In this document: positions 6,880 through 53,884 of the stretch, piece after piece
Layout: each line of letters begins with the position of its first letter
How positions within the stretch are numbered: position 1 is the stretch's first letter
From: Haliotis cracherodii
Lineage: Eukaryota
Assembly (NCBI RefSeq): GCF_022045235.1
Contig: NW_027266286.1
Location: 19,840,001-19,904,000, forward strand
Direction of reading: 5' to 3'
Length of the DNA: 64,000 nt
Notes under the pieces: model-generated
What the model saw: only the letters and a program-made list of their open reading frames with translations
Told to the model about the DNA's origin: nothing
Databases searched by the model: none
Translations under genes and position numbers: made by a program

Positions 6880-8408
6880 TTAACAACATTTTCCCCGGAC
6901 TGTTCCCTGGATGTGTGTCCTACAGACTGGACAACGTTCTAGAGCTGGGGCGCACATGGAACAGGCCACCAGATGTCCACAGGGAAGGAAGACGATGTTG
7001 GCAGGGTCCTCCAGACAGATCTTACACAAGCTCGACTCTTTCAGCTGCTGCATCACTTCCACAGGGCTTACTGCAAAAAGAACACATATATCACCTCACT
7101 GTTAGGCCATGTCTCTTCAGATGAATTTGGTATTTACCAGAAACATAAACATTAAGGGAAAAGGCGGCAATAAGTGGTGCACTTGTGCCAAATCCCTTTG
7201 TCTTTTTGGAAAATAAAATATGTTTAATACATAAACATTCAAAAAGGATATGTTCTCGTTGACTCTGACTCGTTTCTCTGAAAACAACAAGTGTTGCAAG
7301 GAGAGTATGAGCCAGATGAGCTCACAGGCGGAGGAGCCGGCATCAGGATAGATTCATGCATGATTATTAGCCTTTCTATACATTCAACCACCAATGCTTA
7401 AGGATATATACATCATACACGTGTTACAATCGACTCTCCTGTTTGTGCCTCTCACACAGACAATGTCGCCATCGATAATTCGCATATATATATTACTTAT
7501 ATCCAAGTACATGTCATAAAGTAACTTGTTGGCTTTAGTAGTTGAATTACAGTTTTATTTATCCTATAAAAATGCAAAGAGATGCATAACAGCAATGTCA
7601 TCATTCTGTACATACCTTCTGCTTTCGGGATTTGTTGCGGAGCCTGGCGTCTCTCCGTCGAAGCCAGTTCAAACGAAGCCAGTCTATCAGGTTCTGTGGT
7701 GTGATCAGTTACTCTATGGTTAGTGTCGGCCGTTGGACGGGGATCAGTAAGTTGTGGCTGACTCACGGGTGAATGAAGATCGATATCTGTAGTAATAGGT
7801 GGGTATCTAGAACGGGTACTTATAATACTCAACTCCGAAGGCAAGGGGCTGTCACGAAAAGTAACATTTCCACAAGGTAAACCATTCCTGTGTCGACACC
7901 CAGTTTTATGACGTTGAGTGGCGTGCATCCCGTTCCTAATGCCGCAGCTGAAGCATCTAACCTCTCTACCACCATCTGTAGAATAGAACCCGGCAGCCGC
8001 CAGCTGTATGGGGGATACATTTGCTGTGTCTACGGCGTGGAAAGATTTCAATCTCAGCGCTTCATAGACCATGATTTCCTCCAGAGGTACGCCACGTCTA
8101 GCCATTAGTTCTTCGAAATTCCCTCTTAATGATATCGATGGATATACCCAGGCAGTAATATGTGGAAATGCGTTTAGCTTTGGTGTAAAGTACCAATTCG
8201 ACGGCGCCATATTTTTATGCGATTTATTACAATACCATGACGGATCGTTTAATGCCATGATATATAAAATAGTGTCAGTCAAGCGTCCACCACTGACTTT
8301 CTTTACGATAATATTTCCATATTTCAACTTGAAGAAATATTTTCTTTTTGGCGCTGTTATGTATCGGATATAAATATTCAATATCCATTTATCCATTATG
8401 TTCCTCAT
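6880..8408 (-). CDS. IAP-1: type-A IAP-like gene, variant BIR + RING (2 coding exons: 8408-7616, 7070-6880); may be a rearranged or degenerate copy
   Basis: Exon 1 has YEALRLKSF...LAAAGFY...RCFSCG..HKTGC. Acceptor TTGCAG lies before 8417 and the first ATG is at 8408. The phase-1 donor G|GTATGT at 7616 joins in frame to acceptor TTTTTGCAG|TA at 7070, giving the RING CKICLEDPANIVFLPCGHLVACSMCAPALERCPVCR and a TAA at 6880-6882. Only a remnant of a second BIR survives (DRLASF). Confidence 0.75.
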
Positions 8409-9341
8409 CGTGGGTTCCTGCAAGAGTAAAAATAACTCTTTTAGCAAGAATTTTTGAAGGTATATGCCGACAATTTAATTCAGCTTGATGGTCATGTTGT
8501 AAATATTAATTGTCAACACCAGAAAATAACTACCCTTAAGAATAACTAAACCGTCACATAAGATATAGGCATGTGTAGGGAGAAAACATTTTCTCGTAGG
8601 ATGGCGGACAAATTAGTTCTCCCACAACTGTTTCAATATTTATTACCGACCGAGAGTAATATATTGTTAAACCCTGTTAATCCGGTAGTTTTCCCCTTGA
8701 AATGATCCTGATAAACGAAGCATGGGTTCCGAGTAAAAGCTTTTTGTTCACATATTATATTTCCAGGAGTCATCGTCCGAGTTTCAGATTATCGGGTCCC
8801 AAACTAACTAGATGTCACTTTTCGTTAAATCAACCACATACTAATCGGAATGTGTAAATGTGGCAAAGTATTGATTTTTTATCAGTAATGTTATCTGAAG
8901 ATGGTAAATAAAGCTATCATTAAATCTCAAAAATACATTTTACGTCGTCAGAGTTAAACAAACGAAAACCTTTATCCAGTGTACAAGCAAAACGGACCAG
9001 TTACGTTTCAGCAACAATGCAACACAAAACATCTTAAACGGTTCGTTTCATCTTGTAAGTTCGAAAAAAGGACAGACAACAGTAAACAATCCACAGTCGC
9101 GAAGCTCCATATAACAGTCAAGCGTCTGTTGATATATGAGTCATCAAATATTTACGAAAATTTGTGTGACAAAACGGAGGAACTATTCCCACAAAATAGA
9201 ACTCAAAATCTTTAATCTGGGCGTTTATATCCTATTTCAGGTGAACAGTAAACGGATCGCCAGAAAAAAGTATTTACTGAAGTACCATAAATGTCTGTTT
9301 AGATGCAGTTCAATCCAGTGCACCCATACATTATGGCATAC

Positions 9342-12600: not shown

Positions 12601-13732
12601 CCTAACAACAGAAATATTAGGTTAACATCAAGTGTGTTGGACCCAGTGAAAATACCCAGGTAACTTGGAGTTGAAGTGCAAAACAACCAAATAAATTGTT
12701 GACTTCATTCAACTGATTTAAAAATGCCGATAAACAGATGGATATTGCAAGACGACTCAAATTTTTACATTACAAGTTAAACAAAATGTATACGTCGATA
12801 ACCCAAGGGACTACAACAGTTAATTTAACTGAATGTATTTTGCCTTCAGTGGCTATCTACAGCTTGTTGCTGGTCCGTATTTAAAATGTTTTATTTATTT
12901 CTCTTGATAGTTTCCATCTCGAGTGACGATATTTTATTATCTAAAAATACAGAGACTCCCCCAATACAAGGTAACCTGGGTCAGTGGGGTAGCCGGGGTT
13001 AAAGCGTAAGTTTGTCACGTGAAAGTCTCCCTCACTCACTGTTTTGGAGATCTGCGACCTTTGGTAATTAGAAGTATTTTTCCAAGTAAGTGTTTAAATA
13101 TAATACATTATACGTCTTATGCGCCTTAAGGTGTAAGGCCCATGATCTTTCGATAGCTATTTGCAAGCAAGATTGTAAACGGCTCTATCACCTTACTATT
13201 TCTAATGTCAGCACTGTATCGACGTATCTCGGCGATGGCGGTAACACAGGCGAGCAATCAGGAAGCTAAACTAGCTCCACATTGAAAGCTGGTTTGACGA
13301 CCCTGTAATATTTACAGAGACATTGGCAGACACACCAGCGCTATGTATTATTACCTACCAGTGATTGGTAGATATATTTAGCAATGATGTGTCAGTGGCG
13401 TGTGTATTTATATAGACATATAACGCCAGCTATTCGCGAATGAATTTTGAGAAATTGATTAATTTTCTGTAGGAGGCAGGTTAGTCACATTGCATATAAA
13501 CGTATCAGTTACCCTGTAAGTGAAAAGCTATATACAAAGATGTAGTCATGACAATTCATTTATGATTTTTAATATTGTATGCATCGTGTATATTGGTGGT
13601 GTGTGTCATTCACGGAGTAATATTATGTGTAAGTCTTTTACATGTAAAAGATTAACTTTCTTGTAATTCTTTGTAAATATTGTCTGACAATGTCATATTT
13701 ACTGTCATCAATATTGATTTCCAGGGTTGGAC

Positions 13733-18920: not shown

Positions 18921-21900
18921 TCACGGGACGGGAATAATTCCCCGGATGCGTGTCCTGCAGACTGGGCAACGTTCTAGAGCTGGTGAGCACACGCCACAGG
19001 CCACCAGATGTCCACAGGGGAGGAAGACGATGTTGGCAGGGTTCTCCAGACAGATCGTACATTCACTCGTCTCTCTCAGCTGCTCTGTCTCTTCCTCTGT
19101 AGCATTTAACTGGTCCTTGGTTTTATCTGTCACAGACCAAAACATAAATGAGGAATCATATAGGTTTATAGTCTACCTTTAGCGTGACCAGTTAGTGAAC
19201 TTGTTCTTAGTAAATAAAGCATTTACTACATACAATACAAACTGTGTGTCGATCTGGATAGACTTTTAAATGAAATAGAAACATATTGATGAATTGACCT
19301 ATGTTATTCCATGTACTATTTAAACATTTATTATTACTTTGTAGCGGTGTACATAGCAATCGATATGTATATACATGTAGAAGTGTCATCAATGTTGCAA
19401 TAAAGCTTTTCGCTCATTCGGGCTACCTTTGTAAGATCTTCTTGGATGTAAGTTCAGCTAGAAATGCCTGTAGCCCAACATTTAAAATTGATCTCTAGCA
19501 AATTAGGGATGTAGAGAACCGAAATCCAATTTCATAAAAATGTCAGCACTTTAATGATGATTTTCTTGGTAGTTCACCTATATAGCGTTTTGTTATACAT
19601 TATCCAAATAACGAATCCTATTCCGCACCAGAAGCCATTGGCTGCTCTCTTAAATATAAGTGATAATCAATATGTTTACCATGTTTTTGAGTCCTCTCTG
19701 CTTTCCGACTTTTACTGGTAACTGGCAAACCTAGGGAAGCATTGACAGCAGCATTCGAGTTATTGATTGCATTATTCCCTCTTTCACTGTCTGACAAAGT
19801 CGATTGCTTGGGAGAAATGTTTCCTGATATTTGTTCAGACTGATGATTATTGTAACCCATATTCGCCCCCTCTGCTGTCTGTGAGCTAGTTACAACATTA
19901 TGTGATGTGTTTTGCGTTGTTGCTTCTCGGGACGCTATATGTGCCAGATGGACACGGACAGTTCCCCGGATGTGTTTCCTGCAGACTGGGCAACGTTCTA
20001 GAGCTGGTGAGCACACACCACAGGCTACCAGATGCCCACAGGGAAGGAAGATGATGTTGGCAGGGTTCTCCAGACAGATCTTACATGCACTCGCGTCTCT
20101 CAGCTGCTCTGTGTTTTCTTTTGTGGCCTTCAACAGATTCGACTCTGTCAAATCTTTGGTTTCTTCTTTATGTTTCGGATCTATTTTCTGAGGTTGCATC
20201 TCATGGGAGCGTAATTCTGCAACCTTAAGATGAATTTAAGGTGTTTGTAAAATTGTAAATTTTTTATATAAATTTTATATTTCTTTCCTTATCATATCTC
20301 ACAATATGTAATTCTCATTCTACTTTCAATCCTAAGTGGAAACGTGCTTACAGAAAGGTTCATTGTGGTCACCTCCCAACAATCTGGGTCATGCTCGCTT
20401 CTCATCCCGAGGTACTAACACGCGCTGATCAATCTGTCATATCCAGGGATATATTTTCGCGTTTCGTAGCTGCTCTTTGAGGTTGCATCCCGTTGGAACG
20501 TGATTCAGTAGTCTAAAGATAATTTGTTAGATGTTTGTAATATATATTCTTAAAAACACATTTGCTATTTTTACCACATATCCAGCTTTGGTAAAAGAGG
20601 TTTTTTGGTCAGTAATTCCTGAACTAGAATTTCGTTATTACCTGTGGCGTTGTATCTGGGGGACATCTTGCTGCCAGGAAAGGGCAGTCTGGTCTCAAAC
20701 GAGCATGAACCCGCCACGGGTCGTCTTCTTCATCCCATGCCCTGAGCACAAGTCCACAGCGGAAGCACTGAACATTATCCGAGTTGCCTGTAAGAAGGGA
20801 TGACAATGTGCCAAGATACTCAACACAATTATACATCGGCATCATTAATTATATTGTGGTAGGTTGTGATGGTTAATTCCAAACAGCATCACGCTTTGGG
20901 GTGACAATTCAAGTCAGTTCACAGAGTTGTCAATTCATCCGAGAAATAGTAGGGAATCTATCATTTTTTTCCCGTTGACTAAAAACAATGACTAAAACCT
21001 ATCTTACCTTTAACCTTAACATTGGTGACTGCTTATTTATTAATGAAAATAAGAGGTGAACCAATCTCTAGTTCATCCGACATAAAAACGTCATATGATA
21101 AAATTAGAGATTTAGAAGATTGTATTAGAAATGAATTCCAAAATATTATCGTGGTTAAACTTGCAGAACAGTCAAAATATCAAACTGAAATGAATTAGAT
21201 TAAACATGAAGCAATTAGAGAAATGGAGATGGGAAACATAGTGTAAGGAGGATGAAAGCCATCCAGTTCTTTTTGTCACACATTCAAACAATTAATAGCA
21301 TACATAACATAATTTACATTAGAAATGAATTGCTTTAGATGCAGTAAATTCATAACGAATTTTTTACATTTCATGTATGTGCAGAAGAACAAGATGATGT
21401 ATTGCACATATTTTGGAACACAAAATGTAGTAAAAGTAGTATGCAGGTACCTGGGAAAGTTTCTGAATAACCACGCCATTGACAACCCATGAATCACTGT
21501 ATGCTTAATAGCATTTGGATACAGCGCAAGCAATACACTACATAACCATATAATACCAGCTTGCTAGAGATGTATCCTTATATGATAAATTAATAACAAG
21601 AGGCCCAACGTTGAAGAAATTCCCTAAATATTGAAAGATATATGTAAAACAGTCAAACAGTTTAAACATAGAACAAAGAAAGAAAATGATACGATGTGGC
21701 ATAAGTAAACGTGTTCACAATTGAATGTATATTTCAGTACTAATACACATATACTTTGATGGTTATATCCACTATTGATAAATTGTTATTCTTTAACAAC
21801 CTCTTTGATACTGTCAAAAGAGACAATTATATCCGTCGGAAACAGAATTTAGTCACTATTCTTTTGGAATAATTACTGTGACAAACTGGCATCCATTAAT

Positions 21901-22895
21901 TACTCTTCAGGTGCAGAAATACTGTGACATGCAGTAACAATAAGAATATGCTGAATATTTTGTTGAAACTATGCCGTATTTAGACCACCGTTGCGGATAC
22001 ATTGTTATACACGATATATCCCCCTGTTACAATTGAAATATGCATTTTGAATATGTCACATTGCAAATTATTTTTCTATGGTTTGTCATTTTGAGCAATG
22101 TGAGACATACACTAATTGAAAATTACCTGTATAGTAGAAACCAGCTGCAGAAAGTTCCCGCAAAAATCTTTCACTCGGCCACCCTCGGAACGATGCAAGT
22201 CTATTGGTTTCAGAGCTGTAACCAGGCGCTTGGTGATTAGTACCCGCCGTTGGCTGAGGAGAAATTGCAGATCTAGGACGACGGTTTGGATGAGTTATGG
22301 AGAGTCGCTGGATCTCGGGAGATGGATCATGAACATCGAAATCCGAAGTTGGGTACCATAGTTGTGTCAATGCACAGTCAATACTTGAAGACAGTGGGTT
22401 TTCGGTAAAAGACACATTTCCGCGATGTAAATCATGGTTATGTCGACAGTAATGCTTATGAGGCACACTGGCAGGTTTATCCCCATGTTGCCAGTTCCTG
22501 TATCGCACCCCGCAGCAGAAGCACCTTGTCTCGTCACCATCTCCTGTCGCATAGAACCCTGCCTTAGCAAGCTGTATGCGGGATACAGCTATATCCACAC
22601 CAAAAAATGATTTCAGTCTCAAGGCTTCGTAGACCATAACACACTCCAGGGGCACTCCATTCCGAGTCATGAGGTCTTCAAAATTCCCTCTCAAAGATAT
22701 GGATGGGTATACACGAATATGGGTATGTAGCTGTGGCACGAAACAGTGTGAGGGGATTTTATTTTCATGCGAAGTATTGTAATCATATGACACAACGTAG
22801 ATGTAAAGCTTGTCACTGTACACCAACATTATTACAATTTGACGTTTCTTCATTCTTACGGATAAGAAATATAGCATGAATGTATGTACACACAT
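18921..22895 (-). CDS. IAP-3: type-A IAP, variant BIR + canonical BIR + two RING domains (exons 22895-22127, 20787-20642, 20223-19680, 19126-18921)
   Basis: BIR1 is RCFCCG...PHKHYC. BIR2 is split at GFYYTG| (donor GTAATT, phase 1) and continues GNSDNVQCFRC...HARLRPDC. Phase-0 join to VAELRSHEMQPQK...RING1 (CKICLENPANIIFLPCGH). Phase-1 join (G|GTAAAC to ACAG|AT) to RING2 (CTICLENPANIVFLPCGH), then stop at 18921-18923. All junctions are in frame. Confidence 0.85.
20429..20512 (-). other. Duplicated, stop-containing alternative exon of IAP-3
   Basis: Acceptor TCTTTAG|ACT ACT GAA TCA CGT TCC AAC GGG ATG CAA CCT CAA... parallels TCTTAAG|GTT GCA GAA TTA CGC TCC CAT GAG ATG CAA CCT CAG at 20223. 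It has the same phase and ends in TGA after 27 codons. Confidence 0.55.
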
Positions 22896-23367
22896 GGTAA
22901 TGTTCCTTCGTATCTCCTGCACTGCAAATTCAAACATATGAATTTAGCAACACATGCAGGGCGATCTCACCTAACACCACAAATACAAGTTAAGCTAGGA
23001 TGACAACTCTATCTGCTCGCCTATATCCGAGTGTCGGAACATCAAACAGACGTACTTGAAACAGTCACACATATCTGCACAACAGGCAAACAGGACGCCA
23101 TAATGTATTAACACTTGAAGGAACGACACGGTGGACCTATAAATAGAATGTGTAACATTGACAACCAGGACAACGCACTGTTACCTGTCCACCGTCAGTA
23201 CAAGCTTATAGAAAAGTACAGGAAAATAAATGTGCGTTCAATTGATACATTACGAAAATCGATCTGTGTTCACAAACACCGTCTCTCAACCAAATCTAGT
23301 AAATCTCCAACAATACATTACGGCAACAACGCTAGATTTTTCCAGCACATGCAACTCATATCCTTAC

Positions 23368-24709: not shown

Positions 24710-27700
24710 ATGATGTTCTCTGTTCCGCCAAGAGATCATTGTCCAGCGTTCGTGCCACCAGGAGTGTATCCCAGTCGAGCAATGACCCGGAAAATGAAGA
24801 AAGAAACTTTATCCTTAAAACACAAGTACAACACGGATAACGCGAAAGAGATTTCTTACAACTGTAGCTTTGTCCCAAACATACCAGCAAAAATAGACAT
24901 ATCTTATCTTGTCCACTGTATGGAGAAAAAGGGGGATCAATTGGATGCATGTCACGTTGAAAATACTTGCAGTACAGTTGTACATTCAACCGCAAAGCCT
25001 AATATTTCTGTTACAAAAAATGCATATCTTTGTAGAGGCAATGATGTTTTGGTGAAATATATGAGATCCTTATCAAAGGACAGAGAGGAAGTAAAACCAA
25101 CAGAGTCCACTGAAATAGAACGCATCTTGAAAAGAATAGTAAAGAATTCTTCCGATCATAGTTCAAGCAACAACGTTTTGAACAACATTATTGTTTCACC
25201 TTTTTTATCACTTCAAACATACTTTGAGGGCATTGTTAGAGGGGAAGCTCTGCAAGACGATGATATGAGATATGGAGCCTTGCGCCTGAAATCATTTCAA
25301 GGAATCAGCGTTTCTGTCTCCTGCCTCCGCCTTGCATCATCAGGGTTCTTCGCTACTGGGTTAGGTGATGAGGCAAGATGCTTTAGCTGCGATATGAGGT
25401 ATAAACATTGGCTAGCAACTGACGACCCAAGACACATACACAGACGGATCTCCCCTGCCTGTAGACACATCAATGGGAGTGACAGCAGAAACGTACCTAT
25501 ATCTATTACTGCTGGCTCAGACAGGGTGTCGATATCCGCTGCAGTGGCCACAGCAACTCCTGGCGGGGACCAGACCTTGAACAATCAACAAGACCTGAAA
25601 ACAGAGAACATAGGTACTTCGTCAACAGAACATGCATCTCAAGAAGAGAATGGAGTCTTCGACCAGGTCAGGCTTGCAGGCATCCAGCACGTAAACTGCA
25701 GTTCCAGGGAAGCAGATATAATTCCATCAAGTCAACACATCTTTTGTCCGGAACGGTGTGCCCCCTCACAGCTGGCAGAGGTGGAAGTAGCTTCAGGAAA
25801 TGCAGCACCTGCATCTTCAACTCTTACATTTGCCACCGCTGTCTACCCCCACTATGATGATAGGGTAAAACGACTAAGCACCTTCAAGACCTGGCCGTCC
25901 AATCACTGCAAGAAACCAGAAGTGCTTGTTCAAGTAGGCTTCTTCTTCGCAGGTATGTATACACGTGTGGAGTTTGCAAATGATTGTTTGCGTGTCTGTT
26001 CACATCATGGTCGACAGTTGGGTAGACTGATAGTAAAAGCGATGGTTCTCACGTAATCGACTCCTAACGTGGCTGTATGGTATGAATCCAAGTTCTGGTT
26101 TTCCACCGCCATATTTTGACTGGTATAGAACAAAATGTCACGAAAAAGCCCACAAACTCACTCCTTCACGTTATGCTTCGCTGTGCAGAGATGTGTCCCT
26201 TGGGCACGGCAGAAACCTACGGTTGTGGGCTCGAAATCCGATTCGACCCGATTATGCACCATATGCACCATACCCGTGCTCGTGGGTTTCACCGAAGTGG
26301 TAAACGTCTGAGACCTGCATCACTTCGAGCTTTCCTCCCTCATTATGCTGACACATGGTGATATAATTGCAATAATGTTAAAAGCGGTGTTAAACCAAAC
26401 TCACTCATTCACACTCAGCCATGGGGAGATAATTTGATAGAGAAGTTGCTATACAACTGGACAGTAATTATAGATGTAGTTTTGTCTTTATATAGAAGCA
26501 AACCATCTATTTTGCAGGTTACTCTGACTGTGTGCGCTGTTTTGTCTGCGGTGTTGGTCTGAAGACCTGGGAGGATGGGGATGACCCCTGGGTGGAGCAC
26601 GTGCGCTGGAGGTCATCTTGTGCTTACATACTAGCATTCAGGGGAGAACAGTTTGTCCTCCAGACTCTGGGATCACTGGGACAGAAGACAAATGTAAAAT
26701 CCCTTATGTATCTATCATTCAGTGTCATGAACACGTTCTAATTTGTAAGCAGTAATTATTTCATAAATAATGGTAGTATTCATCACAGAGCTTACATTGT
26801 ACTTTATACTAAGGCTGTAGTGTACAGGTGTGTTCCTTATTCCAGACAACAGATATCATTTCAAAGGACGTCTGTCAGCGTGCACTGGGCATGGGATACA
26901 GCGAGGACAGAGTTACCAGGGCATTTCACCAGGTTAAAGCTACTCATGAAGGTAGAATGCATTTTATGTCACCCACTGTCTAAATATGTGTATAAAACAC
27001 AAGGTGAAAGCTGGTTGTCATACATTTGATCCATTATGTCACACTTTTATGCGTGCCACGCCACTTGCAATTTGTAGCTGATTAATATGTACAAATCTAA
27101 CACATAATGTAATGGTTTCAGGGTGCAGATTTCCTGATCTTGCCGCATTGCTGGAGGTTTTGGTGAAGCAGCAATGTGAGTCAGAAGGACTCACGGTCGA
27201 CGCCGATGCCAGTGCAAGGGGAACAAGGTATGCCGAAGCCAGTTCAGGAGGATCAAGATCTGCCAACTCAAGTTCAGAAGAATCAAAATCTTCTGCGAGT
27301 TGGAACAGACAGACTAATAGAACCAGGTGTCATAGCGAAACTGGAGTAGCAGGTGATAACAGAATTCTTTTAATTTCAAAGTATGGTAGATGCAATGTAA
27401 TATATAGTACTGCGTGAGTTCTAAACCCCCTGATTTGATACTTTGCACTCGTGGTATAATTAATGATAAATGATAATTTAAATTTGCATGTGAATCAAAA
27501 CGTGAAAGACTTTAGTTAGTATTACTGATACTGGTATTGCTGTCAAACGTGCATTGAAGGGACGTTATAATAGAGGCCTACGCTGAGACGTAACACAATG
27601 TGCCTGTATATATGTCCTTGGGCTATCTGGTCATAAATACTCGTACTCATCTTATAACAATTGTTATTTTTAGAGAAGCAAGACAGAGTCAAAGAGGAGA

Positions 27701-32973: not shown

Positions 32974-33109
32974 TTCGCTCGTCACGCCGAAGACCTGGGT
33001 TCGATTCCCGACATGGGTACAATGTGTGAAGCCCATTTCTAGTGTCCCCCGCCGTGATATTGCTGGATTTTGCTAAAAGCGGCGTAAAACCATACTCACT
33101 CACTCACTC
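32974..33109 (+). mobile_element. 5'-truncated SINE (family 1) with 13-bp TSD
   Basis: TSD ACTTTACAATGTA at 32961-32973 and 33110-33122; (ACTC)n tail. Confidence 0.9.
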
Positions 33110-33184
33110 ACTTTACAATGTAAATGATTGATGTCTTTATGGTCTGTCTACTCTATTCATTCTCCGTGCAAGGCGGTTGTGTTC

Positions 33185-35513: not shown

Positions 35514-38500
35514 ATGACGATCATCAGCCACAGTGCATGCAATAACTTGTCAGTGTCAAAGAGAAATAGAACACGTTTGAACCCACAATTGCAAGAATCA
35601 TCACAGAACACAATAATATATGAATATGACTCCATCAGTGCCAGATATTCATCCATAAATAGAGATGTTAAGACCATTGAATATGGCGGATGGGATTCAA
35701 ACCATCAAAAAACATCGATCCATCATGGAAGAAAGAAAAGTGACGCAACATGGCACAGAGGATGTACAGCTCCTCATCACTGTCAACACAAAAGAACTGA
35801 TGAGTTGTTTAACAACCAGATCACAACCAAGAAGTACGTTGGCAGTACTACCATATTTTACAATGTGTATAAGATGGATTCCGAACCAGAAGGGTGTAAC
35901 ATCAAGGAGGAAGAACCAACCAAATACACAACAATAGTTTATGTTGAGGACAAATGTGACACAAAATCCTCTATCACTGGTAATGAAACTGATACACAAT
36001 GGGAACTATCGAAGCAGTGTTCACAAGAAGGAAGACATTCCGATATAGAACGCAGTGAATTTCGTCATGCATGGCATGTTTCAAAATCTTTAGTCCGACT
36101 GCATTTTAATAATATTGTTATGTGTTCGAATACATCGCTGCTCTTTGAATTATTCCGCAGTCGAGCAGAATCTGAACAGCTTTTTGAAAGCGGTTTCGGG
36201 GATAATAAGTTTGTGAATGATTGGAAAAGAAAGACTCATGTGACAAAAGAAAAGGAAAATGTCTATACATGTTGGAAGCAGTGTCCAGGAAGTATGATGA
36301 ACGATAGACGAGTGAGCTCACACAAGCAAACATTATTCCCTGACATGGAATTTGAAGCGATCAAAGGATTGACTGGTTCTCATACCCCATATGCACATCT
36401 CCCATATCCAAAGGAAAGAAAACATAGCCATCCCTCAGACAGTCGAAGGGCGTCTAGTGGATTGGCAGTTGATACTGGATGGACACACGTTGCAAAGGAA
36501 CGTGGAGCAACGCCACTTGAATGTGATATAAAAGAGACTTCACGCAGAATTAGTGAATTGTGCGCTCTATACAATGTCAGCGATTGTGACTTCCAACAAA
36601 CATACGAAGAGTATGGCGGTACATCTACAACTCAAAATGAAATAAATAAGTACCTGGACCACCATGGCAGTACTTTTCCAGACAAAGACGAGGAATCAGT
36701 CGAGTCTAAACTCCCTTCCAAAGACATTTTTCGTCATATTGATATGAACAGCTATATTCAATCCCTTCAAACACTTACTGTTGCACCGTTTCTTTCTTTA
36801 CAAGGTTACTTTGTAAAGATCGCTAATCATGAACATGTTTCAAATGATGAAAAGATGGCACATGAGGGCTTGAGGCTTGGTTCGTTTTCGGGTATCAATG
36901 TAAACGCATCTTGCATCCGTCTAGCAGCCGCAGGATTCTACGCTACGGGCGATAGGGATGAGACCAGATGTTTCAGTTGCGGAGTCAGACACAGGGGCTG
37001 GCAACAGGGGGACAACATCTTCATCATCCACAAACAGATTTCCCCAACATGTCTTCATGCCATGGGAACTGACCAAACAACTGTGCCGATTAAACCTCCT
37101 CCCATAGCCGACACTACATCACCACCAGTCGCGTTGGCTAATTCATCAGATGACGCTAGTTTGACACTTGTCATGCACAAAGATCCAAACATAATAACCG
37201 CTGCGGATGATACTATGTCAAGCTTGGAGGCCGATTCAATAAGTGGCGCTGGTATCGAATCAGCAACAAGAAGTGCTCGGGAAAATCCTAACTTACACGT
37301 AGTTACATACAACAAATACAAATCATCAGCTGAATCGGTTAAAGATGAAGCCACAGTAGCATCTCCGTCTGTTTCTGATGAAGGTGTACACAGTTCCCCA
37401 CTCCATACAAACCATGAATCTGTCACAGATGACAACATGATAACCTTTCTGCCTGCCTCAAGGGAAGGAGCAGTTAGCGCGCAATTACAAAGAAGGGAGT
37501 CTACTGTACAATCTGATTCAGCAACCGGGACACGATATAACTCAGGACTTCATAAAAAGATATCTTTGAGGTTTGACAATGCCATCTACCCCAACTACTG
37601 TGACATATCAACTAGACTTTCATCCTTCCTACTGTGGCCCAAAGAACATTGCAAGAAACCAGAAGAACTTGTTCAAGTTGGTTTCTTCTATGCAGGTAAA
37701 AACAATGCTTTGATCCACATGGAGGTTGTTACCTTATATGGTCAGAATTTAAACCTGGAATTCAGATTTATAAAATGCTGAATTTCAGTAAGAAAAAATT
37801 CATTTAATAATAATAAGACAAGGTTTATGCTAATGGGAATGAAATGATACCATTATATGATTATAAATACCACAGGTTTAGTTAACTATTAAACAAATTA
37901 ATTCTCCCCCACAGACTTCTCCGACTGTGTGCGATGTTTCGTGTGCGGTATTGGTCTGAAGACGTGGGAGAAGGGAGACAACCCTTGGGTGGAACATGTG
38001 CTTCGGAGGGCGTCTTGTGCCTATGTGAGAGCCATCAAAGGAGAAGCATTTATTACACAGACACTTGCGGAGGAAGGGGAGAGAAGCAGGGTATGTCAGA
38101 TTACCTATTATACTCAACAGGCACATATCTGTCGATATGCACAATAATATTGTTCGGGGTGGGGGTGAAGGATGGGGGACTGGTACATGGTGGTTGTGAG
38201 TGTCACAACAATGGTATGTGTCTCAGACCTACATCAAGCTGACACGACCTGATATAGCAGACATACTGTTCAAAGGGGTGTTAACTGATTCATTCATTCA
38301 CTCCATATTCTATGTCTACTTTCAGGAACGTGACATACCAGAAATCAGAAATCAAGCTGGAAATACGAATGGTAAATTAAAGCGGTTACATATGTATTGT
38401 CCTAAACGTTCGAAATACGTGAGTCCATATGTAGCAACGGTATAATGATGTATTCACACACTACGTGGTACTGTTGACCACTATTGCAGACACTATTATA

Positions 38501-41437: not shown

Positions 41438-41526
41438 CATCTTCCCGAGGAAAAGGCGTTAACTGACAATAAAAGTCCAGAAGCAGGACTTTTATATTCA
41501 GTTAACGCCCTTGCCTCGGGAAGATG
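41438..41526. repeat. Palindromic (hairpin) element
   Basis: CATCTTCCCGAGGAAAAGGCGTTAACTGACAATAAAAGTCC pairs with GGACTTTTATATTCAGTTAACGCCCTTGCCTCGGGAAGATG around a short loop. Confidence 0.8.
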
Positions 41527-44847: not shown

Positions 44848-47800
44848 TTCGACTCAGCGAGGTAATGCTGCTATTTGTGTTGCTGTTTTGACTCAGTGAG
44901 GTAGTGCTGCTATTTGTGTTGCTGTTTCGACTCAGCGAGGTAATGCTGCTATTTGTGTTGCTGTTTCGACTCAGCGAGGTAAAGCTACAATTTATGTTGC
45001 TGTTTCGACTCAGTGAGGTAAAGCTGCTATTTGTGTTGCTATATCGACTCAGCGAGGTAAAGCTACTATTTATGTTGCTGTTTCGACTCAGTGAGGTAAA
45101 GCTGCTATTTGTGTTGCCGTTTCGATTCAGCGAGGTAAAGCTACTATTTATGTTGCTGTTTCTACTCAGTGAGGTAAAGCTGCTATTTGTGTTGCTGTTT
45201 CGACTCAGCGAGGTAGTGCTGCTATTTGTGTTGCTGTTTCGACTCAGCGAGGTAATGCTGCTATTTGTGTTGCTGTTTCGACTCAGCGAGGTAGTGCTTC
45301 TATTTGTGTTGCTGTTTCGACTCAGCGAGGTAGTGCTGCTATTTGTGTTGCTGTTTCGACTCAGTGAGGTAAAGCTGCTATTTGTGTTGCTGTTTCGACT
45401 CAGTGAAGTAAAGCTGCTATTTATGTTGCTGTTTCGACTCAGTGAGGTAAAGCTGCTATTTGTGTTGCTGTTTCGACTCAGTGAGGTAAAGCTTCTATTT
45501 ATGAAGCCGTTTCGACTCAATGAGGTAAAGCTGCTATTTATGTTGCTATATCGACTCAGCGAGGTAAAGCTACAATTTATGTTGCTGTTTCGACTCAGCG
45601 AGGTAAAGCTACAATTTATGTTGCTGTTTCTACTCAGTGAGGTAAAGCTGCTATTTGTGTTGCTGTTTCGACTCAGCGAGGTAGTGCTGCTATTTGTGTT
45701 GCTGTTTCGACTCAGCGAGGTAATGCTGCTATTTGTGTTGCTGTTTCGACTCAGCGAGGTAGTGCTTCTATTTGTGTTGCTGTTTCGACTCAGTGAGGTA
45801 AAGCTTCTATTTATGAAGCCGTTTCGACTCAATGAGGTAAAGCTGCTATTTGTGTTGCTATATCGACTCAGCGAGGTAAAGCTACTATTTATGTTGCTGT
45901 TTCGACTCAGTGAGGTAAAGCTGCTATTTGTGTTGCCGTTTCGATTCAGCGAGGTAAAGCTACTATTTATGTTGCTGTTTCTACTCAGTGAGGTAGTGCT
46001 GCTATTTGTGTTGCTGTTTCGACTCAGCGAGGTAGTGCTGCTATTTGTGTTGCTGTTTCGACTCAGCGAGGTAATGCTGCTATTTGCTTTTTCTGTTTCG
46101 ACTCAACGAGGTAAAGCTACTATTTATGTTGCTGTTTTGACTCAGTGAGGTAAAGCAACTATTTATGTTGCTGTTTCGACTCGGCGAGATAAAGCTTCTA
46201 TTCATGTTGCTCTTTCGACTCAGCGAGGTAAGGCTACTGTTTATGTTGCTATTTCGACTCCGCGAGGTAGAGCTTTTATTTATGTTGCTCTTTCGACTCA
46301 GTGAGGTAAAGCTGCTATTTGTGTTGCTGTTTCGACTCAGTGAGGTAAAGCTACAATTTATGTTGCTGTTTCGACTCAGTGAGGTAAAGCTGCTATTTAT
46401 GTTGCTGTTTCGACTCAGTGAGGTAAAGCTGCTATTTATGTTGCCGTTTCGATTCAGCGAGGTAAAGCTACTATTTATGTTGCTGTTTCTACTCAGTGAG
46501 GTAAAGCTGCTATTTGTGTTGCTGTTTCGACTCAGCGAGGTAGTGCTGCTATTTGTGTTGCTGTTTCGACTCAGCGAGGTAAAGCTGCTATTTGTGTTGC
46601 TGTTTCGACTCAGCGAGGTAGTGCTTCTATTTGTGTTGCTGTTTCGACTCAGCGAGGTAGTGCTGCTATTTGTGTTGCTGTTTCGACTCAGCGAGGTAGT
46701 GCTGCTATTTTCTATTTCTGTTTCGACTCAACGAGGTAAAGCTACTATTTATGTTGCTGTTTTGACTCACAGAGGTAAAGCAACTATTTATGTTGCTGTT
46801 TCGACTCGGCGAGATAAAGCTTCTATTCATGTTGCTGTTTCGACTCAGTGAGGTAAAGCTGCTATTTGTGTTGCTGTTTCGACTCAGTGAGGTAAAGCTA
46901 CAATTTATGTTGCTGTTTCGATTCAGTGAGGTAAAGCTGCTATTTGTGTTGCTGTTTCGACTCAGTGAAGTAAAGCTGCTATTTATGTTGCTGTTTCGAC
47001 TCAATGAGGTAAAGCTGCTATTTGTGTTGCTGTTTCGACTCAGTGAGGTAAAGCTTCTATTTATGAAGCCGTTTCGACTCAATGAGGTAAAGCTGCTATT
47101 TATGTTGCTATATCGACTCAGCGAGGTAAAGCTACAATTTATGTTGCTGTTTCTACTCAGTGAGGTAAAGCTGCTATTTGTGTTGCTGTTTCGACTCAGC
47201 GAGGTAGTGCTGCTATTTGTGTTGCTGTTTCGACTCAGCGAGGTAATGCTGCTATTTGTGTTGCTGTTTCGACTCAGCGAGGTAGTGCTTCTATTTGTGT
47301 TGCTGTTTCGACGCAGTGAGGTAAAGCTTCTATTTATGAAGCCGTTTCGACTCAATGAGGTAAAGCTGCTATTTGTGTTGCTATATCGACTCAGCGAGGT
47401 AAAGCTACTATTTATGTTGCTGTTTCGACTCAGTGAGGTAAAGCTGCTATTTGTGTTGCTATATCGACTCAGCGAGGTAAAGCTACTATTTATGTTGCTG
47501 TTTCGACTCAGTGAGGTAAAGCTGCTATTTGTGTTGCCGTTTCGATTCAGCGAGGTAAAGCTACTATTTATGTTGCTGTTTCTACTCAGTGAGGTAAAGC
47601 TGCTATTTGTGTTGCTGTTTCGACTCAGCGAGGTAGTGCTGCTATTTGTGTTGCTGTTTCGACTCAGCGAGGTAATGCTGCTATTTGCTTTTTCTGTTTC
47701 GACTCAACGAGGTAAAGCTACTATTTATGTTGCTGTTTTGACTCAGTGAGGTAAAGCAACTATTTATGTTGCTGTTTCGACTCGGCGAGATAAAGCTTCT

Positions 47801-49908
47801 ATTCATGTTGCTCTTTCGACTCAGCGAGGTAAGGCTACTGTTTATGTTGCTATTTCGACTCCGCGAGGTAGAGCTTTTATTTATGTTGCTCTTTCGACTC
47901 AGTGAGGTAAAGCTGCTATTTGTGTTGCTGTTTCGACTCAGTGAGGTAAAGCTACAATTTATGTTGCTGTTTCGACTCAGTGAGGTAAAGCTGCTATTTA
48001 TGTTGCTGTTTCGACTCAGTGAGGTAAAGCTGCTATTTGTGTTGCCGTTTCGATTCAGCGAGGTAAAGCTACTATTTATGTTGCTGTTTCTACTCAGTGA
48101 GGTAAAGCTGCTATTTGTGTTGCTGTTTCGACTCAGCGAGGTAGTGCTGCTATTTGTGTTGCTGTTTCGACTCAGCGAGGTAATGCTGCTATTTGTGTTG
48201 CTGTTTCGACTCAGCGAGGTAGTGCTTCTATTTGTGTTGCTGTTTCGACTCAGCGAGGTAGTGCTGCTATTTGTGTTGCTGTTTCGACTCAGCGAGGTAG
48301 TGCTGCTATTTGCTATTTCTGTTTCGACTCAACGAGGTAAAGCTACTATTTATGTTGCTGTTTTGACTCACAGAGGTAAAGCAACTATTTATGTTGCTCT
48401 TTCGACTCGGCGAGATAAAGCTTCTATTCATGTTGCTCTTTCGACTCAGTGAGGTAAAGCTGCTATTTGTGTTGCTGTTTCGACTCAGTGAGGTAAAGCT
48501 ACAATTTATGTTGCTGTTTCGACTCAGTGAGGTAAAGCTGCTATTTGTGTTGCTGTTTCGACTCAGTGAAGTAAAGCTGCTATTTATGTTGCTGTTTCGA
48601 CTCAGTGAGGTAAAGCTGCTATTTGTGTTGCTGTTTCGACTCAGTGAGGTAAAGCTTCTATTTATGAAGCCGTTTCGACTCAATGAGGTAAAGCTGCTAT
48701 TTATGTTGCTATATCGACTCAGCGAGGTAAAGCTACAATTTATGTTGCTGTTTCTACTCAGTGAGGTAAAGCTGCTATTTGTGTTGCGGTTTCGACTCAG
48801 CGAGGTAGTGCTGCTATTTGTGTTGCTGTTTCGACTCAGCGAGGTAATGCTGCTATTTGTGTTGCTGTTTCGACTCAGCGAGGTAGTGCTTCTATTTGTG
48901 TTGCTGTTTCGACTCAGTGAGGTAAAGCTTCTATTTATGAAGCCGTTTCGACTCAATGAGGTAAAGCTGCTATTTGTGTTGCTATATCGACTCAGCGAGG
49001 TAAAGCTACTATTTATGTTGCTGTTTCGACTCAGTGAGGTAAAGCTGCTATTTGTGTTGCCGTTTCGATTCAGCGAGGTAAAGCTACTATTTATGTTGCT
49101 GTTTCTACTCAGTGAGGTAAAGCTGCTATTTGTGTTGCTGTTTCGACTCAGCGAGGTAGTGCTGCTATTTGTGTTGCTGTTTCGACTCAGCGAGGTAGTG
49201 CTGCTATTTGCTTTTTCTGTTTCGACTCAACGAGGTAAAGCTACTATTTATGTTGCTGTTTTGACTCAGTGAGGTAAAGCAACTATTTATGTTGCTGTTT
49301 CGACTCGGCGAGATAAAGCTTCTATTCATGTTGCTCTTTCGACTCAGCGAGGTAAGGCTACTGTTTATGTTGCTATTTCGACTCCGCGAGGTAGAGCTTT
49401 TATTTATGTTGCTCTTTCGACTCAGTGAGGTAAAGCTGCTATTTGTGTTGCTGTTTCGACTCAGTGAGGTAAAGCTACAATTTATTTGCTGTTTCGACTC
49501 AGTGAGGTAAAGCTGCTCTTTGTGTTGCTGTTTCGACTCAGTGAGGTAAAGCTGCTATTTGTGTTGCTGTTTTGACTAGTGAGGTAAAGCTGCTATTTAT
49601 GTTGCTGTTTTGACTCAGTGAGGTAAAGCTGCTATTTGTGTTGCTGTTTCGACTCAGTGAGGTAAAGCTTCTATGTATGAAGCTGTTTCGACTCAGTGAG
49701 GTAAAGCTGCTATTTGTGTTGCTGTATCGACTCAGCGAGGCAAAGCTACTATTTATGTTGCTGTTTCGACTCAGTGAGACAAAGCTGCTATTTGTGTTGC
49801 TGTTTCGATTCAGCGAGGTAAAGCTACTATTTATGTTGCTGTTTCTACTCAGTGAAGTAAAGCTGCTATTTGTGTTGCTGTTTTGACTCAGAGAGGTAAT
49901 GCTGCTAT
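44848..49908. repeat. 39-bp satellite array (~130 units) with ~1.6-kb higher-order repeat
   Basis: Unit ~TTCGACTCAG(C/T)GAGGTAAAGCTGCTATTTGTGTTGCTGT, seen as a 13-aa periodicity in the ORF track. Variant blocks recur 1601 bp apart (46165/47766, 46705/48306, 46790/48391), then 1523 bp apart (49289). Confidence 0.97.
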
Positions 49909-51630
49909 ACATGATAACGTTGTGACACAGTGCGATCATGGTGTAGAAGGAATGGATATATATGTGAGGAGATTTCTTTGAAAATAATCATGATTAGAAA
50001 AGCCACGACACATAAATTGCTTTTAATACTTTTAATATCTTACCTTTTAGCATGAACAAGCACCTTGTAATAAATTGAAAGTCGGTTGCTTTTATGACAA
50101 GGCAGGAGAAACTCTTGAAAATATGTATCACGTCTGTGAAAAAATAACAGATTCAACCTAAACAAAATCCAGTTACAAATGTAAATAGAAACATGCATAT
50201 ACAAAATGACGCATAATTTTTAGATATTGCCTATTTTTTTTTATATTTTCTTTGTTAACGTGATAAACTAATGTTATAAGGGGCAATGAGTCATGATAAC
50301 CGGACTCCACCTTCTCTACAATTCCTGTAGCGTGTTTGAGTCTTTCATATGTAACTTCAGTTATTTATAAACACACGTTGTTCGTGATTGGCCCGATGCG
50401 GACCTGAAATACATCTGACGTGGAATGATGGCTGTCGCATGCACAACGATATTGATCATTGGACTGCTCTCGCTGCACGCTTGATTTTACAAAGACCATA
50501 TCCAAGTGAGTTGTTTGTCTCATACCACTTTCTCCGTGGTTGTGATAATGCCACCTAAATAACCAGATTAAATAACGTGAGATAAATATTCACCCTCGTA
50601 AACTTGTAAATTCGAGTGACTCGAGAAGCGGATACCATATCTAAAAATAGTTTGTCAACATGACTTAATACGGAGGTGTGTTGTTTATATCCAAGCACAT
50701 ACAGATATAGTCAGAGTCTGCTCAGTTTTCAAAACATGGGCTGTAGGTAGTTGTTTTCAATATGGCGTAGCTGTGACAATCATCTGCACAAAAAGAGATC
50801 ATTATAGAAAGTGTTGTCAGCGTGAACGTGTCAAATCCGAAATAAACCTCCTAGTATTTCAAATCAATTTTTTTGTCTTGGTAACAACTTGTACAAATGC
50901 GCAAATCAAAAAGACGCATTTCAGTCAAATTGATCAGTAATCAGAATATTTAATCGCGTATTAAATGGAGTCACGGGAGAATGAATGTTTGCTTGCCTTT
51001 GGATTGAAGTGACCTGAAGTGCTCATATGTCGGCGGTGATAATAGCTGTATCTCTATTCATGTAGAGCTGTACACAATAGCCTGTCGCAACCGGTTCATA
51101 CAGTCATAAGGAAGTAAATCTAACACAACGACGTTCGTGTTGTGGGCTGGTAACACCATTTATATCATTTGATTTATGTTGAAATCGTAGCATGTATGCC
51201 ATATTGATTCATTATAATGACACATGGCCTTTGGTTTTTACTGTCAACTGACATGTTTATCTCTTCAAATGTATATGTTCATGAATGGTGCAGTAACGAG
51301 TTAAAATGTCAAAATTATCATGTCATGAGGTCACGTTTCCTATTTATTGTCATACCCTGACACCTGGTGCCGTCAATGATTTTCGGTGATCCATTCATAT
51401 AATGAACATCCCTTGTTTGCCTTTACGCCATGTTATAACTTTGTTCATTTTGCCTCATAGTTATAATATCAACAACAACAGTTACCCTTGACATGCTAGA
51501 TACTAGTATCCTTATCGTGGTCTGATATAAAAACAATCAGTTCGATGTCTCCTAAATTCTCATTCTCGCATCTTCACCATGATTATTTGAACTTCAGAGG
51601 AAAGACTGGTTTCATACACCCTCGACAACA

Positions 51631-53884
51631 ATGAAGCCGAAGCAATTCCTGTACTCCTTCAAGTTATGGCATGGCATGATTAGAGTGGATGTTATGGACA
51701 AGTGCTTGCATGTGAAGTCAGTGTTCCTCATGCCTTTCCCGAACTCCGTAAAGGATACCAAGACCTTGCATGATTCCAAAGATTCTTTTGAATATTCTAA
51801 ATATGAGTTTCCATTCTCAAGAATCCATGTCTTTCCGTGTATTTGTCTCAGGGGAAACTTCGAGGCATTGGTCAGAAGAGGAGGGGAACCTCTCCAGGAC
51901 AGCATGCGGCTTGAGGCTTTAAGGCTGCGATCCTTTAATGGGGTGAATATTGAAGCCCCAGCCTTAGTCCTTGCTAGAGAAGGGTTGTATGCTACAGGAG
52001 ATGGGGACGAGACTAGATGTTTTAGCTGCGGCATCAGGCACAGGAACTGGAGACGAAGGGACAGGCCTGCCGATGTCCATCTTGAAGATTGTTGTAGGCA
52101 TACTTCAAGAAATATACCATTTGCCAACAACCCATTGCCTTCGGGGTTTGAGAATCAGCCTGTCCGAACTCACCTTGCGCTGCAAGATCATGACGTACAC
52201 CTAGTCAGTAACTCCAGAGATCCTGTTATCATCCCTGGTAGTAGTAGAGGAAACCGTGCACACATGCACCAGCCAACAGGTGATTACAGTACATTCACAG
52301 AACGTCTCTCTACATATCGAAACTGGCCACATGGAAGAGATGTTGCTTTGCCCGCCACCATTGCCAGAGCTGGTTTCTTCTACGAAGGTGAAATTTTATA
52401 TCTATATCTTGTGTCTCTCTTGTCTTATCTCATGGTTTGCCTCATGTTTTGTCTCATTATTTGTCTCATGGTTTGTCTCATAACAATCCCTTGTACCAAA
52501 TCGCTAAATGTTTCATAACATTATCAGTAACGATGGAATGTTTTAACCGGAACTACAAAAAACACTCATTTCAAATAATGTCAATACATTTTTTTTTCAT
52601 TTTCTTTCTTGGAGGTTACGCTGATACTGTCCGGTGTTACGCATGTTTGACTGCCTTGCGAGACTGGGAACCAGGAGACGATCCCTGGATAGAGCACGTA
52701 AGATGGAGGCCAAGATGTGATTTCATAGAATCTGTGAGAGGTCAAAGACGCAGACGGGAGGTTGTCACGAGCATGGACCGGGTATTGTTATATTATTAAT
52801 CTTTGAAAACATAAGATTTCACAATTTGGTTATTCGGCATCTTTCTCCATATCATTATGATTAAACAAGTCTTTATGTCACATGCAGAAAACAGTCCTAT
52901 TACATTTACCGGTTGTATTTTAAACAGGCACGTCGTGGATGCGGCCATGATTCTCCATATGGGCAAAGGGAAAATGGTAAGTTTCCTTACCTGTACATTG
53001 GATGAACGGTACATATGCATGTAAATTCCCAATGCTTAATTATTTCCGCATTCTTCACGATAGTCCAAATTAGAATAAACATAATTAAGTGACTGAGTGA
53101 GTTGGATTTTATGCCGCTTTTAGCAATGTCCCAATATCACGGCCGATTGACCTAAGGATACGAACAAGTACATGTAGTTGTGTTCAAAGTTCCTTATGAA
53201 TAATCACTGTCATGTTATATTGAATGTTTTGTGTTGAGTTTGTATCTCTGATTTTGCGCTGCAGATCCTTTGGGACTTTGTCTCGAGATGGGCTACAGCC
53301 AGCACAATATCGTGGAGGCGGCACGTATTATCGAGAGAGGTAGCAAAGTGTTTATTTGTCATTAAAACTTGAATGATGGCGTTGAACTAAGGTTGTTCGG
53401 GATTGGTTCCATGTTGAGATATTTCACAGTTCATTATCATACAAAAAGTTATATATATATCTTGCTGTCAGTCAGACAGGTACGAATTATACACATTCAG
53501 TGTAACAGCATTACTGGCTGAGAACGTTGAAACTCACAATGACATGCAGTGATGTCAGAGAGCGAGAGATAACGCCATGTACCTTTTGGCAACCAATCCG
53601 AAACTTAACTTTGAATAACGAGACTTCGTTGTCATCTTTCAGATAGAGCTGTACTTTCGCTTGAACTGCTTCTCGACAAGTTGAGGGTACTAGCGGATGG
53701 CACCTCAGTAGATTACAGCTCACCCGCTCGTGGGGGGAATTGTATTGGTTGTGGGATTCAGCCAATTGCAATAAGGTTTATTCCGTGTGACCACCGTGTA
53801 TTCTGCAACAGATGCGCTGAAGACTTCAGTAGGTGCCCCCTCAGAGAGTGTGGACGAGCTATTCAGGGCGTCAAATTGATGTAG
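51631..53884 (+). CDS. IAP-7: type-A IAP, variant BIR + canonical BIR + UBA + divergent RING (exons 51631-52387, 52615-52781, 52928-52976, 53265-53339, 53643-53884)
   Basis: BIR1 CFSC..DVHLEDCC. BIR2 GFFYEG|GYADTVRCYAC..WEPGDDPWIEHVRWRPRC. UBA-like CLEMGYSQHNI..|LSLELLLDKL. RING CIGC..PCDHRVFCNRC..CPLREC, TAG at 53882-53884. Phases are consistent. Confidence 0.85.

What the first reader, a model, noticed from the sequence alone, without database searches (positions are those of the whole stretch)
7885..52100. A BIR subfamily with shortened zinc-ligand spacing (H-x3-C)
Seen: canonical BIRs here are Cx2Cx16Hx6C. All four type-A first BIRs differ: IAP-1 Cx2Cx11Hx3C (also lacks the conserved Trp), IAP-3 Cx2Cx17Hx3C, IAP-5 Cx2Cx16Hx3C, IAP-7 Cx2Cx16Hx3C/x4C. 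The same 3-residue loss in four diverged paralogues that keep all four ligands argues for a maintained variant fold rather than decay (inference).
Basis: partly seen in the sequence, partly recalled or inferred. Interest (0 to 1): 0.7.

Follow-up and report, generated by a model that had tools for sequence, protein, structure and literature searches.

The report
Shortened zinc-site BIR domains in abalone
A group of abalone cell-death-regulator (IAP) genes has a first domain with three instead of six residues between its last two metal-binding residues; this is kept across abalone species and likely still binds zinc, but the same spacing was already described in oysters.

Summary
The spacings are real. 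The window lies in an abalone tandem IAP cluster: 6 of 17 related first BIRs in 264 kb have H-x3-C, 4 of them in the window, and they form one clade (96/96 with the motif columns left out). H-x3-C holds in 16 of 16 sequences (four named Haliotis species plus two unnamed records) while the Cys-His loop is 11, 13, 16 or 17 residues. dN/dS is 0.27 (canonical paralogues 0.22), and orthologues of IAP-1 and IAP-7 are spliced. So the variant is maintained, not decaying. Corrections: it is one inherited deletion, not four; the losses are not identical; IAP-5 is an isolated fragment. The spacing is known: oyster 'Type Y' BIRs are Cx2Cx16Hx3C, and the yeast Pml39 crystal structure shows zinc bound by Cx2Cx16Hx3C in a BIR-like fold. 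Not found in print in my searches: the abalone clade, its loop-length variants, the Trp-less BIR-RING gene IAP-1, and H-x3-C first BIRs in ascidians, which suggest repeated convergence (not proven, AU p 0.18). Likely role: a zinc-bound, type-I-like adaptor for a RING ligase. Zinc binding and partners are untested.

The parts
7896..7955 (-). IAP-1 first BIR, zinc motif Cx2Cx11Hx3C; the Trp-containing part of the loop is deleted
   Evidence: Pfam BIR 29.8 bits; orthologues x11 (P0035, P0163) and x13 (P0012 second gene part, P0098)
6880..8408 (-). IAP-1 gene: intact 327-aa short BIR + stub of a second BIR + RING; coding exons 8408-7616 and 7070-6880
   Evidence: open reading through the GT-AG joint; joint seen in contigs of 3 of 4 runs; H. 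rufescens P0163 has the same layout
22446..22523 (-). IAP-3 first BIR, Cx2Cx17Hx3C
   Evidence: Pfam BIR 48.1 bits; orthologues P0007 (H. asinina) and first part of P0012 (H. rubra) are x17-H-x3
18924..22937 (-). IAP-3 gene: short BIR + canonical second BIR + two RINGs (matches P0008, 568 aa)
   Evidence: tblastn and peptide mapping of P0008
32296..32370 (+). IAP-5 BIR, Cx2Cx16Hx3C
   Evidence: Pfam BIR 43.9 bits
32110..32529 (+). IAP-5 open frame of 139 aa: isolated BIR exon fragment, N-terminal part, second BIR and RING not found nearby; possible truncated duplicate
   Evidence: no second BIR or RING match in 30000-35600
52018..52092 (+). IAP-7 first BIR, Cx2Cx16Hx3C (a second Cys follows at 52093-52095)
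   Evidence: AlphaFold2 BIR fold
51631..53884 (+). IAP-7 gene: intact 429-aa short BIR + type II second BIR + RING, five coding exons (51631-52387, 52615-52781, 52928-52976, 53265-53339, 53643-53884)
   Evidence: all four introns GT-AG and frame open; joints in contigs of 3 of 4 runs; P0001 94% identical
25379..25462 (+). IAP-4 first BIR, canonical Cx2Cx16Hx6C (comparison)
36969..37052 (+). IAP-6 first BIR, canonical Cx2Cx16Hx6C (comparison)
61682..61765 (+). IAP-8 first BIR, canonical Cx2Cx16Hx6C (comparison)

Best explanation
These are the first BIR domains of one clade of abalone IAP genes that share a His-x3-Cys zinc motif kept under purifying selection; the domain likely arose by one deletion, is predicted to keep the BIR fold, likely still binds zinc, and would serve as a non-caspase-binding adaptor for the gene's RING ubiquitin ligase. 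Shown: spacing, clade, conservation across species, dN/dS, splicing. Predicted: fold of IAP-7, with the His in the helix before the last Cys. Inferred: the deleted piece is the Ser-Pro-x turn of the canonical paralogues; His and Cys then close the zinc site one helical turn apart, with helix alphaC shifted as in Pml39; the peptide (IBM) groove face is lost or rebuilt while the opposite face, which binds TRAF2 and TAB1 in mammalian type I BIRs, stays available. The partner is not identified.
For: H and C at fixed i/i+4 in 16 of 16 sequences, while the three residues between them take 5 states each and the residue before His 9, and the Cys-His loop takes four lengths. One clade: 100/100 with all columns, 96/96 without the motif and the next 8 columns. 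dN/dS 0.268 for 6 paralogues, 63 codons; against 1: 2dL 49.7, p 2e-12; against the canonical 0.216: p 0.24; Cys-to-Cys part alone 0.284, p 8e-4; N-terminal part 0.19. IAP-7 BIR core in contigs of two other runs: 2 and 3 synonymous, 0 replacement changes, against 7 and 11 replacement changes in the rest of the exon. Spliced contigs for IAP-7 and IAP-1. In IAP-1/P0163, P0098, P0003 and P0006 the short BIR is the only complete BIR before the RING. AlphaFold2 IAP-7: pLDDT 76.9, helix 67-73 holds His71; best match cIAP2 BIR1, Z 9.2, rmsd 2.6, 71 aligned. Zinc bound by Cx2Cx16Hx3C in a BIR-like fold is solved in ScPml39 (PMC9586977 passages). No Glu/Gln before the His in the 6 short paralogues, the type II mark of PMC8917759.
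Against: No zinc or binding data. Model confidence falls to a mean 63 in residues 71-80, which hold His71 and Cys75. The IAP-1 model is poor (pLDDT 59.5, no helix after the sheet; best Z 6.1). dS between paralogues is 0.54-4.1, so dN/dS is imprecise, and the linker behind the BIR also gives about 0.35. The single-ratio model averages over IAP-5, which looks truncated and has pairwise ratios 0.30-0.46. With only the columns up to the second Cys the clade has just 62/59, and with 51 columns it splits without support. The aromatic residue two places after the last Cys, which caps the core in BIR and Pml39 structures, is absent in 16 of 16; the canonical paralogues mostly have His there.
Confidence: 0.72

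Rival explanations
1. Relaxed domain: the deletion crippled the zinc site; selection acts on the N-terminal helices or on the gene for its second BIR and RING, and His/Cys persist by descent.
For: Poor model for IAP-1, low confidence at the His-Cys segment of IAP-7, dN/dS of the Cys-to-Cys part a little higher than in canonical paralogues (0.284 against 0.191), further indels in the loop, IAP-5 truncated.
Against: His and Cys are invariant in 16 of 16 while neighbours vary freely and the loop length changes; the Cys-to-Cys part alone rejects dN/dS 1 (p 8e-4); several genes have no other complete BIR.
Confidence: 0.12
2. Different ligand set: zinc is bound, but by other residues, such as the second Cys of IAP-7 (x4), the first His of S1 (x4), or one of the His residues behind the last Cys.
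For: IAP-7 and P0001 have Cys-Cys, S1 has His-His, and a His follows the last Cys within 2-4 places in many members.
Against: These extra residues are not conserved: S2 has Ser for the second Cys; P0003, P0005, P0006 have Gly or Cys for the first His. Only H-x3-C is common to all 16.
Confidence: 0.08
3. Ancient subfamily: abalone, oyster, scallop and ascidian H-x3-C BIRs descend from one old variant rather than from separate deletions.
For: All are first BIRs of BIR-RING IAPs; the AU test does not reject abalone plus ascidian as one clade (p 0.183).
Against: The best tree is 18.7 log units better with them apart: abalone short BIRs sit with abalone canonical paralogues (SH-aLRT 90), ascidian ones with two canonical first BIRs, P0030 and P0086 (89). 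The residues kept differ: oyster keeps x-Pro-Asn before the Cys, abalone has no Pro there, ascidians are x18-H-x3-C with Trp before His.
Confidence: 0.08

Closest known systems
Type Y BIR of oysters (Witkop et al. 2022, PMC8917759)
   Same: Cx2Cx16Hx3C in the first BIR, followed by a canonical second BIR: three C. gigas and two C. virginica proteins in the paper's alignment, matching the counts in its text; molluscan tandemly expanded IAPs; function untested.
   Different: The oyster alignment places the gap right after the His and keeps x-Pro-Asn; abalone lacks the Pro and appears by eye to have lost the Ser-Pro-x part. Abalone adds loop lengths 11, 13 and 17, a Trp-less form, and genes in which it is the only complete BIR. 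The abalone domains are nearest to abalone canonical paralogues (55-68% identity).
zf-C3HC / Rsm1 modules (ScPml39, ZC3HC1/NIPA; BIR-like clan CL0417)
   Same: BIR-like fold with C-x2-C-xn-H-x3-C; the Pml39 Rsm1 module is Cx2Cx16Hx3C with zinc at the canonical place and helix alphaC displaced (PMC9586977). IAP-7 model to 7rdn: Z 5.7, rmsd 4.8, 74 aligned.
   Different: Those are paired modules of a nuclear-basket protein with an aromatic residue at Cys+2. The abalone domains score as BIR, not zf-C3HC, lack that aromatic residue and sit in BIR-RING IAPs.
Type I BIR (BIR1 of cIAP1/2 and XIAP)
   Same: N-terminal position, no Glu/Gln before the His, best structural match cIAP2 BIR1; type I BIRs bind adaptors on the face opposite the IBM groove (PMC6360406).
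   Different: H-x6-C spacing and a hydrophobic residue at position 80 in type I; no evidence that the abalone domain binds TRAF2 or TAB1.
Ascidian IAP first BIR (Ciona XP_078493298.1, Phallusia CAB3225565.1 and CAB3225578.1)
   Same: H-x3-C in the first BIR of BIR-RING IAPs.
   Different: x18 loop with Trp before His; groups with other first BIRs, not with the abalone clade, in the best tree. Not found described in my searches.

Membership tests
BIR domain (PF00653) / IAP | Pfam BIR score above the curated cut-off | tested here: met
   6 of 6 short domains 29.8-48.1 bits against 22.9
BIR domain (PF00653) / IAP | Four ligand residues C, C, H, C and the Rxx(S/T)-aromatic and G-aromatic motifs | tested here: met
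   R, S, F, G, both Cys invariant in alignment A1; His and last Cys 16 of 16
BIR domain (PF00653) / IAP | Canonical spacing C-x2-C-x16-H-x6-C | tested here: not met
   H-x3-C, loops 11-17: a variant, not a canonical BIR
BIR domain (PF00653) / IAP | BIR fold | tested here: met
   Predicted model of IAP-7 only: Z 9.2, rmsd 2.6, 71 aligned to cIAP2 BIR1. IAP-1 inconclusive (pLDDT 59.5, Z 6.1)
BIR domain (PF00653) / IAP | Binds one zinc ion | not testable with these tools
   precedent only
Type Y BIR (PMC8917759) | Three residues fewer between His77 and Cys84 | tested here: met
Type Y BIR (PMC8917759) | The lost residues include position 80 | tested here: inconclusive
   By eye the abalone clade lost the Ser-Pro-x part (81-83), but the codons are too diverged to place the gap
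Type Y BIR (PMC8917759) | Common descent with the oyster Type Y genes | not tested
   oyster sequences were read in the supplement only and were not in the trees
Type II BIR (IBM-binding) | Glu/Gln76, His77, Trp/His80, Cys84 | tested here: not met
   residue before His is H, F, R, P, I or V in the 6 paralogues
zf-C3HC / Rsm1 (NuBaID) | H-x3-C spacing | tested here: met
zf-C3HC / Rsm1 (NuBaID) | Aromatic or listed hydrophobic residue at Cys+2 (W, Y, F, M, L) | tested here: not met
   H 8, R 3, S 2, Q, A, D in 16 sequences; signature
zf-C3HC / Rsm1 (NuBaID) | Two H-x3-C modules in tandem and Pfam score above cut-off | tested here: not met
   second BIRs in the window are H-x6-C; zf-C3HC only 13.6 bits against 22.2, for IAP-1 alone

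The most novel reading that the evidence does not exclude
H-x3-C is a second stable state of the IAP zinc site that first BIRs have reached separately in abalones, oysters, a scallop and ascidians, repeating the first step proposed for the origin of the zf-C3HC/Rsm1 fold; and the abalone IAP-1 lineage has gone further to a minimal, Trp-less zinc finger (Cx2Cx11-13Hx3C) with a rebuilt binding face that is the sole substrate receptor of a RING ligase.
Probability: 0.35. Interest if true: 0.55.

Novelty: new variant of a known kind. Interest (0 to 1): 0.35.

Why it matters
It turns a rare sequence class (oyster Type Y, five genes, function open) into a testable series: close canonical and short paralogues side by side, with loops of 11 to 17 residues and a fixed H-x3-C. 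IAP scans that use the H-x6-C consensus will miss or call these domains degenerate although they are under selection. If the convergence holds, it shows how a BIR can step towards the zf-C3HC/Rsm1 geometry. It does not overturn anything: the spacing and its zinc geometry both have precedents.

Tried and rejected
Assembly error or hidden intron: rejected. x4 reading for IAP-7: rejected as the shared state. Membership of zf-C3HC/Rsm1: rejected. The profile for the wide search became 423 positions long, so it ranked whole IAPs and not short BIRs; only the best 150 of 9523 hits were listed, so the survey of other taxa is a sample. In one search, 401 of 471 anchors in 156 proteins were x16-H-x6-C; most of the other 70 were mis-anchored BIRs or RINGs; P0134 was first flagged as x3 and dropped because it reads as x18-H-x6-C. 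Eleven near-duplicate or doubtful rows of 85 were left out of the tree. Searches failed to print dN/dS; it was read from the logs and recomputed. The alignment behind one search dropped one column of the IAP-7 motif. A search for short relatives of IAP-5 (76-244 aa) found none, which does not show that it stands alone. The lists of differences were cut (15 of 18 for X1, 23 of 24 for X10). Earlier findings of the scan: none. No complex prediction was sent, since no partner is named. Other short BIRs elsewhere in the genome were not excluded: 150 of 338 candidates were scored, and none of 13 outside loci scanned showed H-x3-C (7 gave an anchor).
Full report
Setting. The window is G000:C23:19840001-19904000. 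Named proteins place it in an abalone: P0001 (Haliotis rufescens) is 94% identical to IAP-7, and P0002 and P0008 (H. cracherodii) match genes of this cluster at 97-100%. In 264 kb around the window there are 17 related first BIRs, 6 with H-x3-C and 11 canonical. Four of the six lie in the window; S1 and S2 lie 52.5 kb and 7.2 kb upstream.

Observation. All six short domains pass the Pfam BIR cut-off. For IAP-7 the first of the two adjacent Cys is the homologous ligand. The loss is not the same everywhere: between the second and the last Cys lie 20, 21 or 15 residues against 23. What is constant is the His-Cys distance.

Not an artefact. The motif lies within one exon. Contigs of runs X1, X5 and X10 span the IAP-7 exon with no indel listed in the BIR, and skip its introns; three of the joints are read as GT..AG in at least one run and all four introns are GT-AG in the gene model. 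The runs are only guessed to be RNA, but intron-free joints point to spliced transcripts. The IAP-1 BIR exon is joined to the RING exon in X1, X5 and X10. IAP-7 is an intact 429-aa BIR-BIR-RING gene; IAP-1 an intact 327-aa BIR-RING gene with only a stub of the second BIR; IAP-3 matches P0008 with two BIRs and two RINGs. IAP-5 is an isolated BIR exon with no second BIR or RING match in 30000-35600 and may be a truncated duplicate.

One origin, then maintenance. The short domains form one clade: 100/100 with all columns, 96/96 without the motif and the next eight columns (with a long-branch warning), 62/59 with only the columns up to the second Cys. So four paralogues are one event, not four. 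The better argument is what happened afterwards. In 16 of 16 sequences (6 paralogues here, and 10 from H. rufescens, H. rubra, H. asinina and two unnamed records) His and Cys stay four apart, while the three residues between them take five states each, the residue before the His takes nine, and the Cys-His loop is 11, 13, 16 or 17 long. The Trp-less IAP-1 form is shared with P0035 and P0163 (x11) and with P0012 and P0098 (x13). The codon model gives dN/dS 0.268 for the six paralogues, far from 1 (2dL 49.7) and not different from the canonical 0.216 (p 0.24); the Cys-to-Cys part alone gives 0.284 (p 8e-4 against 1; canonical 0.191). Limits: dS is 0.54-4.1, the linker behind the domain also gives about 0.35, and one ratio covers all branches. 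In the IAP-7 exon the listed differences to X1 and X10 are 2 and 3 synonymous and no replacement changes in the BIR core, against 7 and 11 replacement changes outside; the numbers are small, the lists were cut, and the two runs share most changes.

Structure. AlphaFold2 on a 25-row alignment gives IAP-7 a BIR fold, pLDDT 76.9, with a helix at 67-73 that holds His71, and Cys75 just behind; confidence is 86-92 in residues 21-70 but 63 in 71-80. Foldseek lists BIR domains throughout its shown rows; VIA-align gives cIAP2 BIR1 Z 9.2 (rmsd 2.6, 71 aligned) and Pml39 Z 5.7 (rmsd 4.8, 74 aligned). The alignment held canonical paralogues, so the model may lean to the canonical fold. The IAP-1 model is poor (59.5; best Z 6.1) and decides nothing. 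Ligand distances could not be read from the models.

Mechanism. Shown: spacing, clade, selection, splicing. Inferred: 10 of 11 canonical paralogues read His-x-x-x-Ser-Pro-x-Cys, one has Ala for Ser; the short clade has no Pro there, so the turn was likely cut out, leaving His and Cys one helical turn apart. The crystal structure of ScPml39 shows that this closes a zinc site in a BIR-like fold: its Rsm1 module is Cx2Cx16Hx3C, zinc sits where it does in canonical BIRs, and helix alphaC is displaced (PMC9586977, passages). The change falls on the face that forms the IBM groove, between beta3 and alpha3; type I BIRs bind adaptors on the opposite face (PMC6360406, passages). The short domains lack Glu/Gln76, as do their canonical paralogues, and their N-terminal part has dN/dS 0.19. 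I therefore read them as likely zinc-bound, type-I-like adaptors for the RING. In IAP-1, P0163, P0098, P0003 and P0006 no other complete BIR precedes the RING, which makes a dead first BIR less likely. No partner was identified.

Prior art. PMC8917759 (passages, section 7 whole, supplement file 7 parts 1-2 of 4) names Type Y BIRs, with three residues lost including position 80, in three C. gigas and two C. virginica genes. Its alignment shows exactly such rows (XP_011437445.1, XP_019925758.1, XP_019926829.1; XP_022287934.1, XP_022287983.1), all Cx2Cx16Hx3C in the first BIR. One more row, XP_021365104.1 (the scallop by my inference from the paper's species list), also reads x16-H-x3-C with the gap before the Cys. 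'Type Y BIR' occurs in that one paper of the library. PMC10162418 (passages) gives H-x3-C as the ZC3HC1/Pml39 signature. PMC13159474 (abstract, passages; supplements not seen) uses H-x6-C and has no 'Haliotis' or 'Type Y' in its main text. Searches (listings only) showed no paper on abalone or ascidian short BIRs; subscription journals are largely missing from the library.

Wider spread. Among 156 proteins scanned, H-x3-C first BIRs also occur in Ciona (P0056) and Phallusia (P0117, P0131), in the unnamed P0130 of the same group (x18, Trp before His), and in the unnamed P0054 (x12). In a 74-row, 51-column tree without the motif the ascidian group sits with two canonical first BIRs (P0030, P0086) and the abalone group with its canonical paralogues; forcing them together costs 18.7 log units but is not rejected (p-AU 0.183). 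Different residues are kept in oyster, abalone and ascidian. Convergence is the likelier reading but is not shown.

Verdict. Real, maintained, and a variant of a described class. Interest 0.35.

Noticed in passing
G000, many contigs; L023, L024, L025, L028, L030: Dozens of near-identical BIR matches are spread over many contigs. Five fetched loci are 95-99% identical over 1.7-3.2 kb. In L023 the BIR frame lies beside frames that look like a cysteine protease and a P-loop ATPase, which recalls a Maverick/Polinton-type element (recalled, not tested). Much of the genome's BIR count may be mobile-element copies.
   Followed up: partly
window 13718-14642 (+): IAP-2: a divergent single BIR split by an intron (joint 14030-14536, GT..AG, in 4 of 4 runs); canonical H-x6-C, first exon only 13.5 bits to Pfam BIR. 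Similar split BIRs lie about 72, 81 and 96 kb from the window start.
   Followed up: no
window 18924-20226 (-): IAP-3 ends in two RING domains in tandem.
   Followed up: no
window 44777-49987: About 5 kb of a short tandem repeat with long open frames on both strands and strong strand skew.
   Followed up: no
window 35505-37781 and 59879-62224 (+): IAP-6 and IAP-8 have first exons with 450-560 residues of no Pfam match before the first BIR; P0010 keeps the IAP-8 extension.
   Followed up: no
P0130: This unnamed four-BIR IAP has H-x3-C in both of its first two BIRs (sequence).
   Followed up: no
window 54121-57371: Fragments that look like a LINE-type retroelement (reverse-transcriptase and endonuclease-like frames; by recall, not tested).
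   Followed up: no
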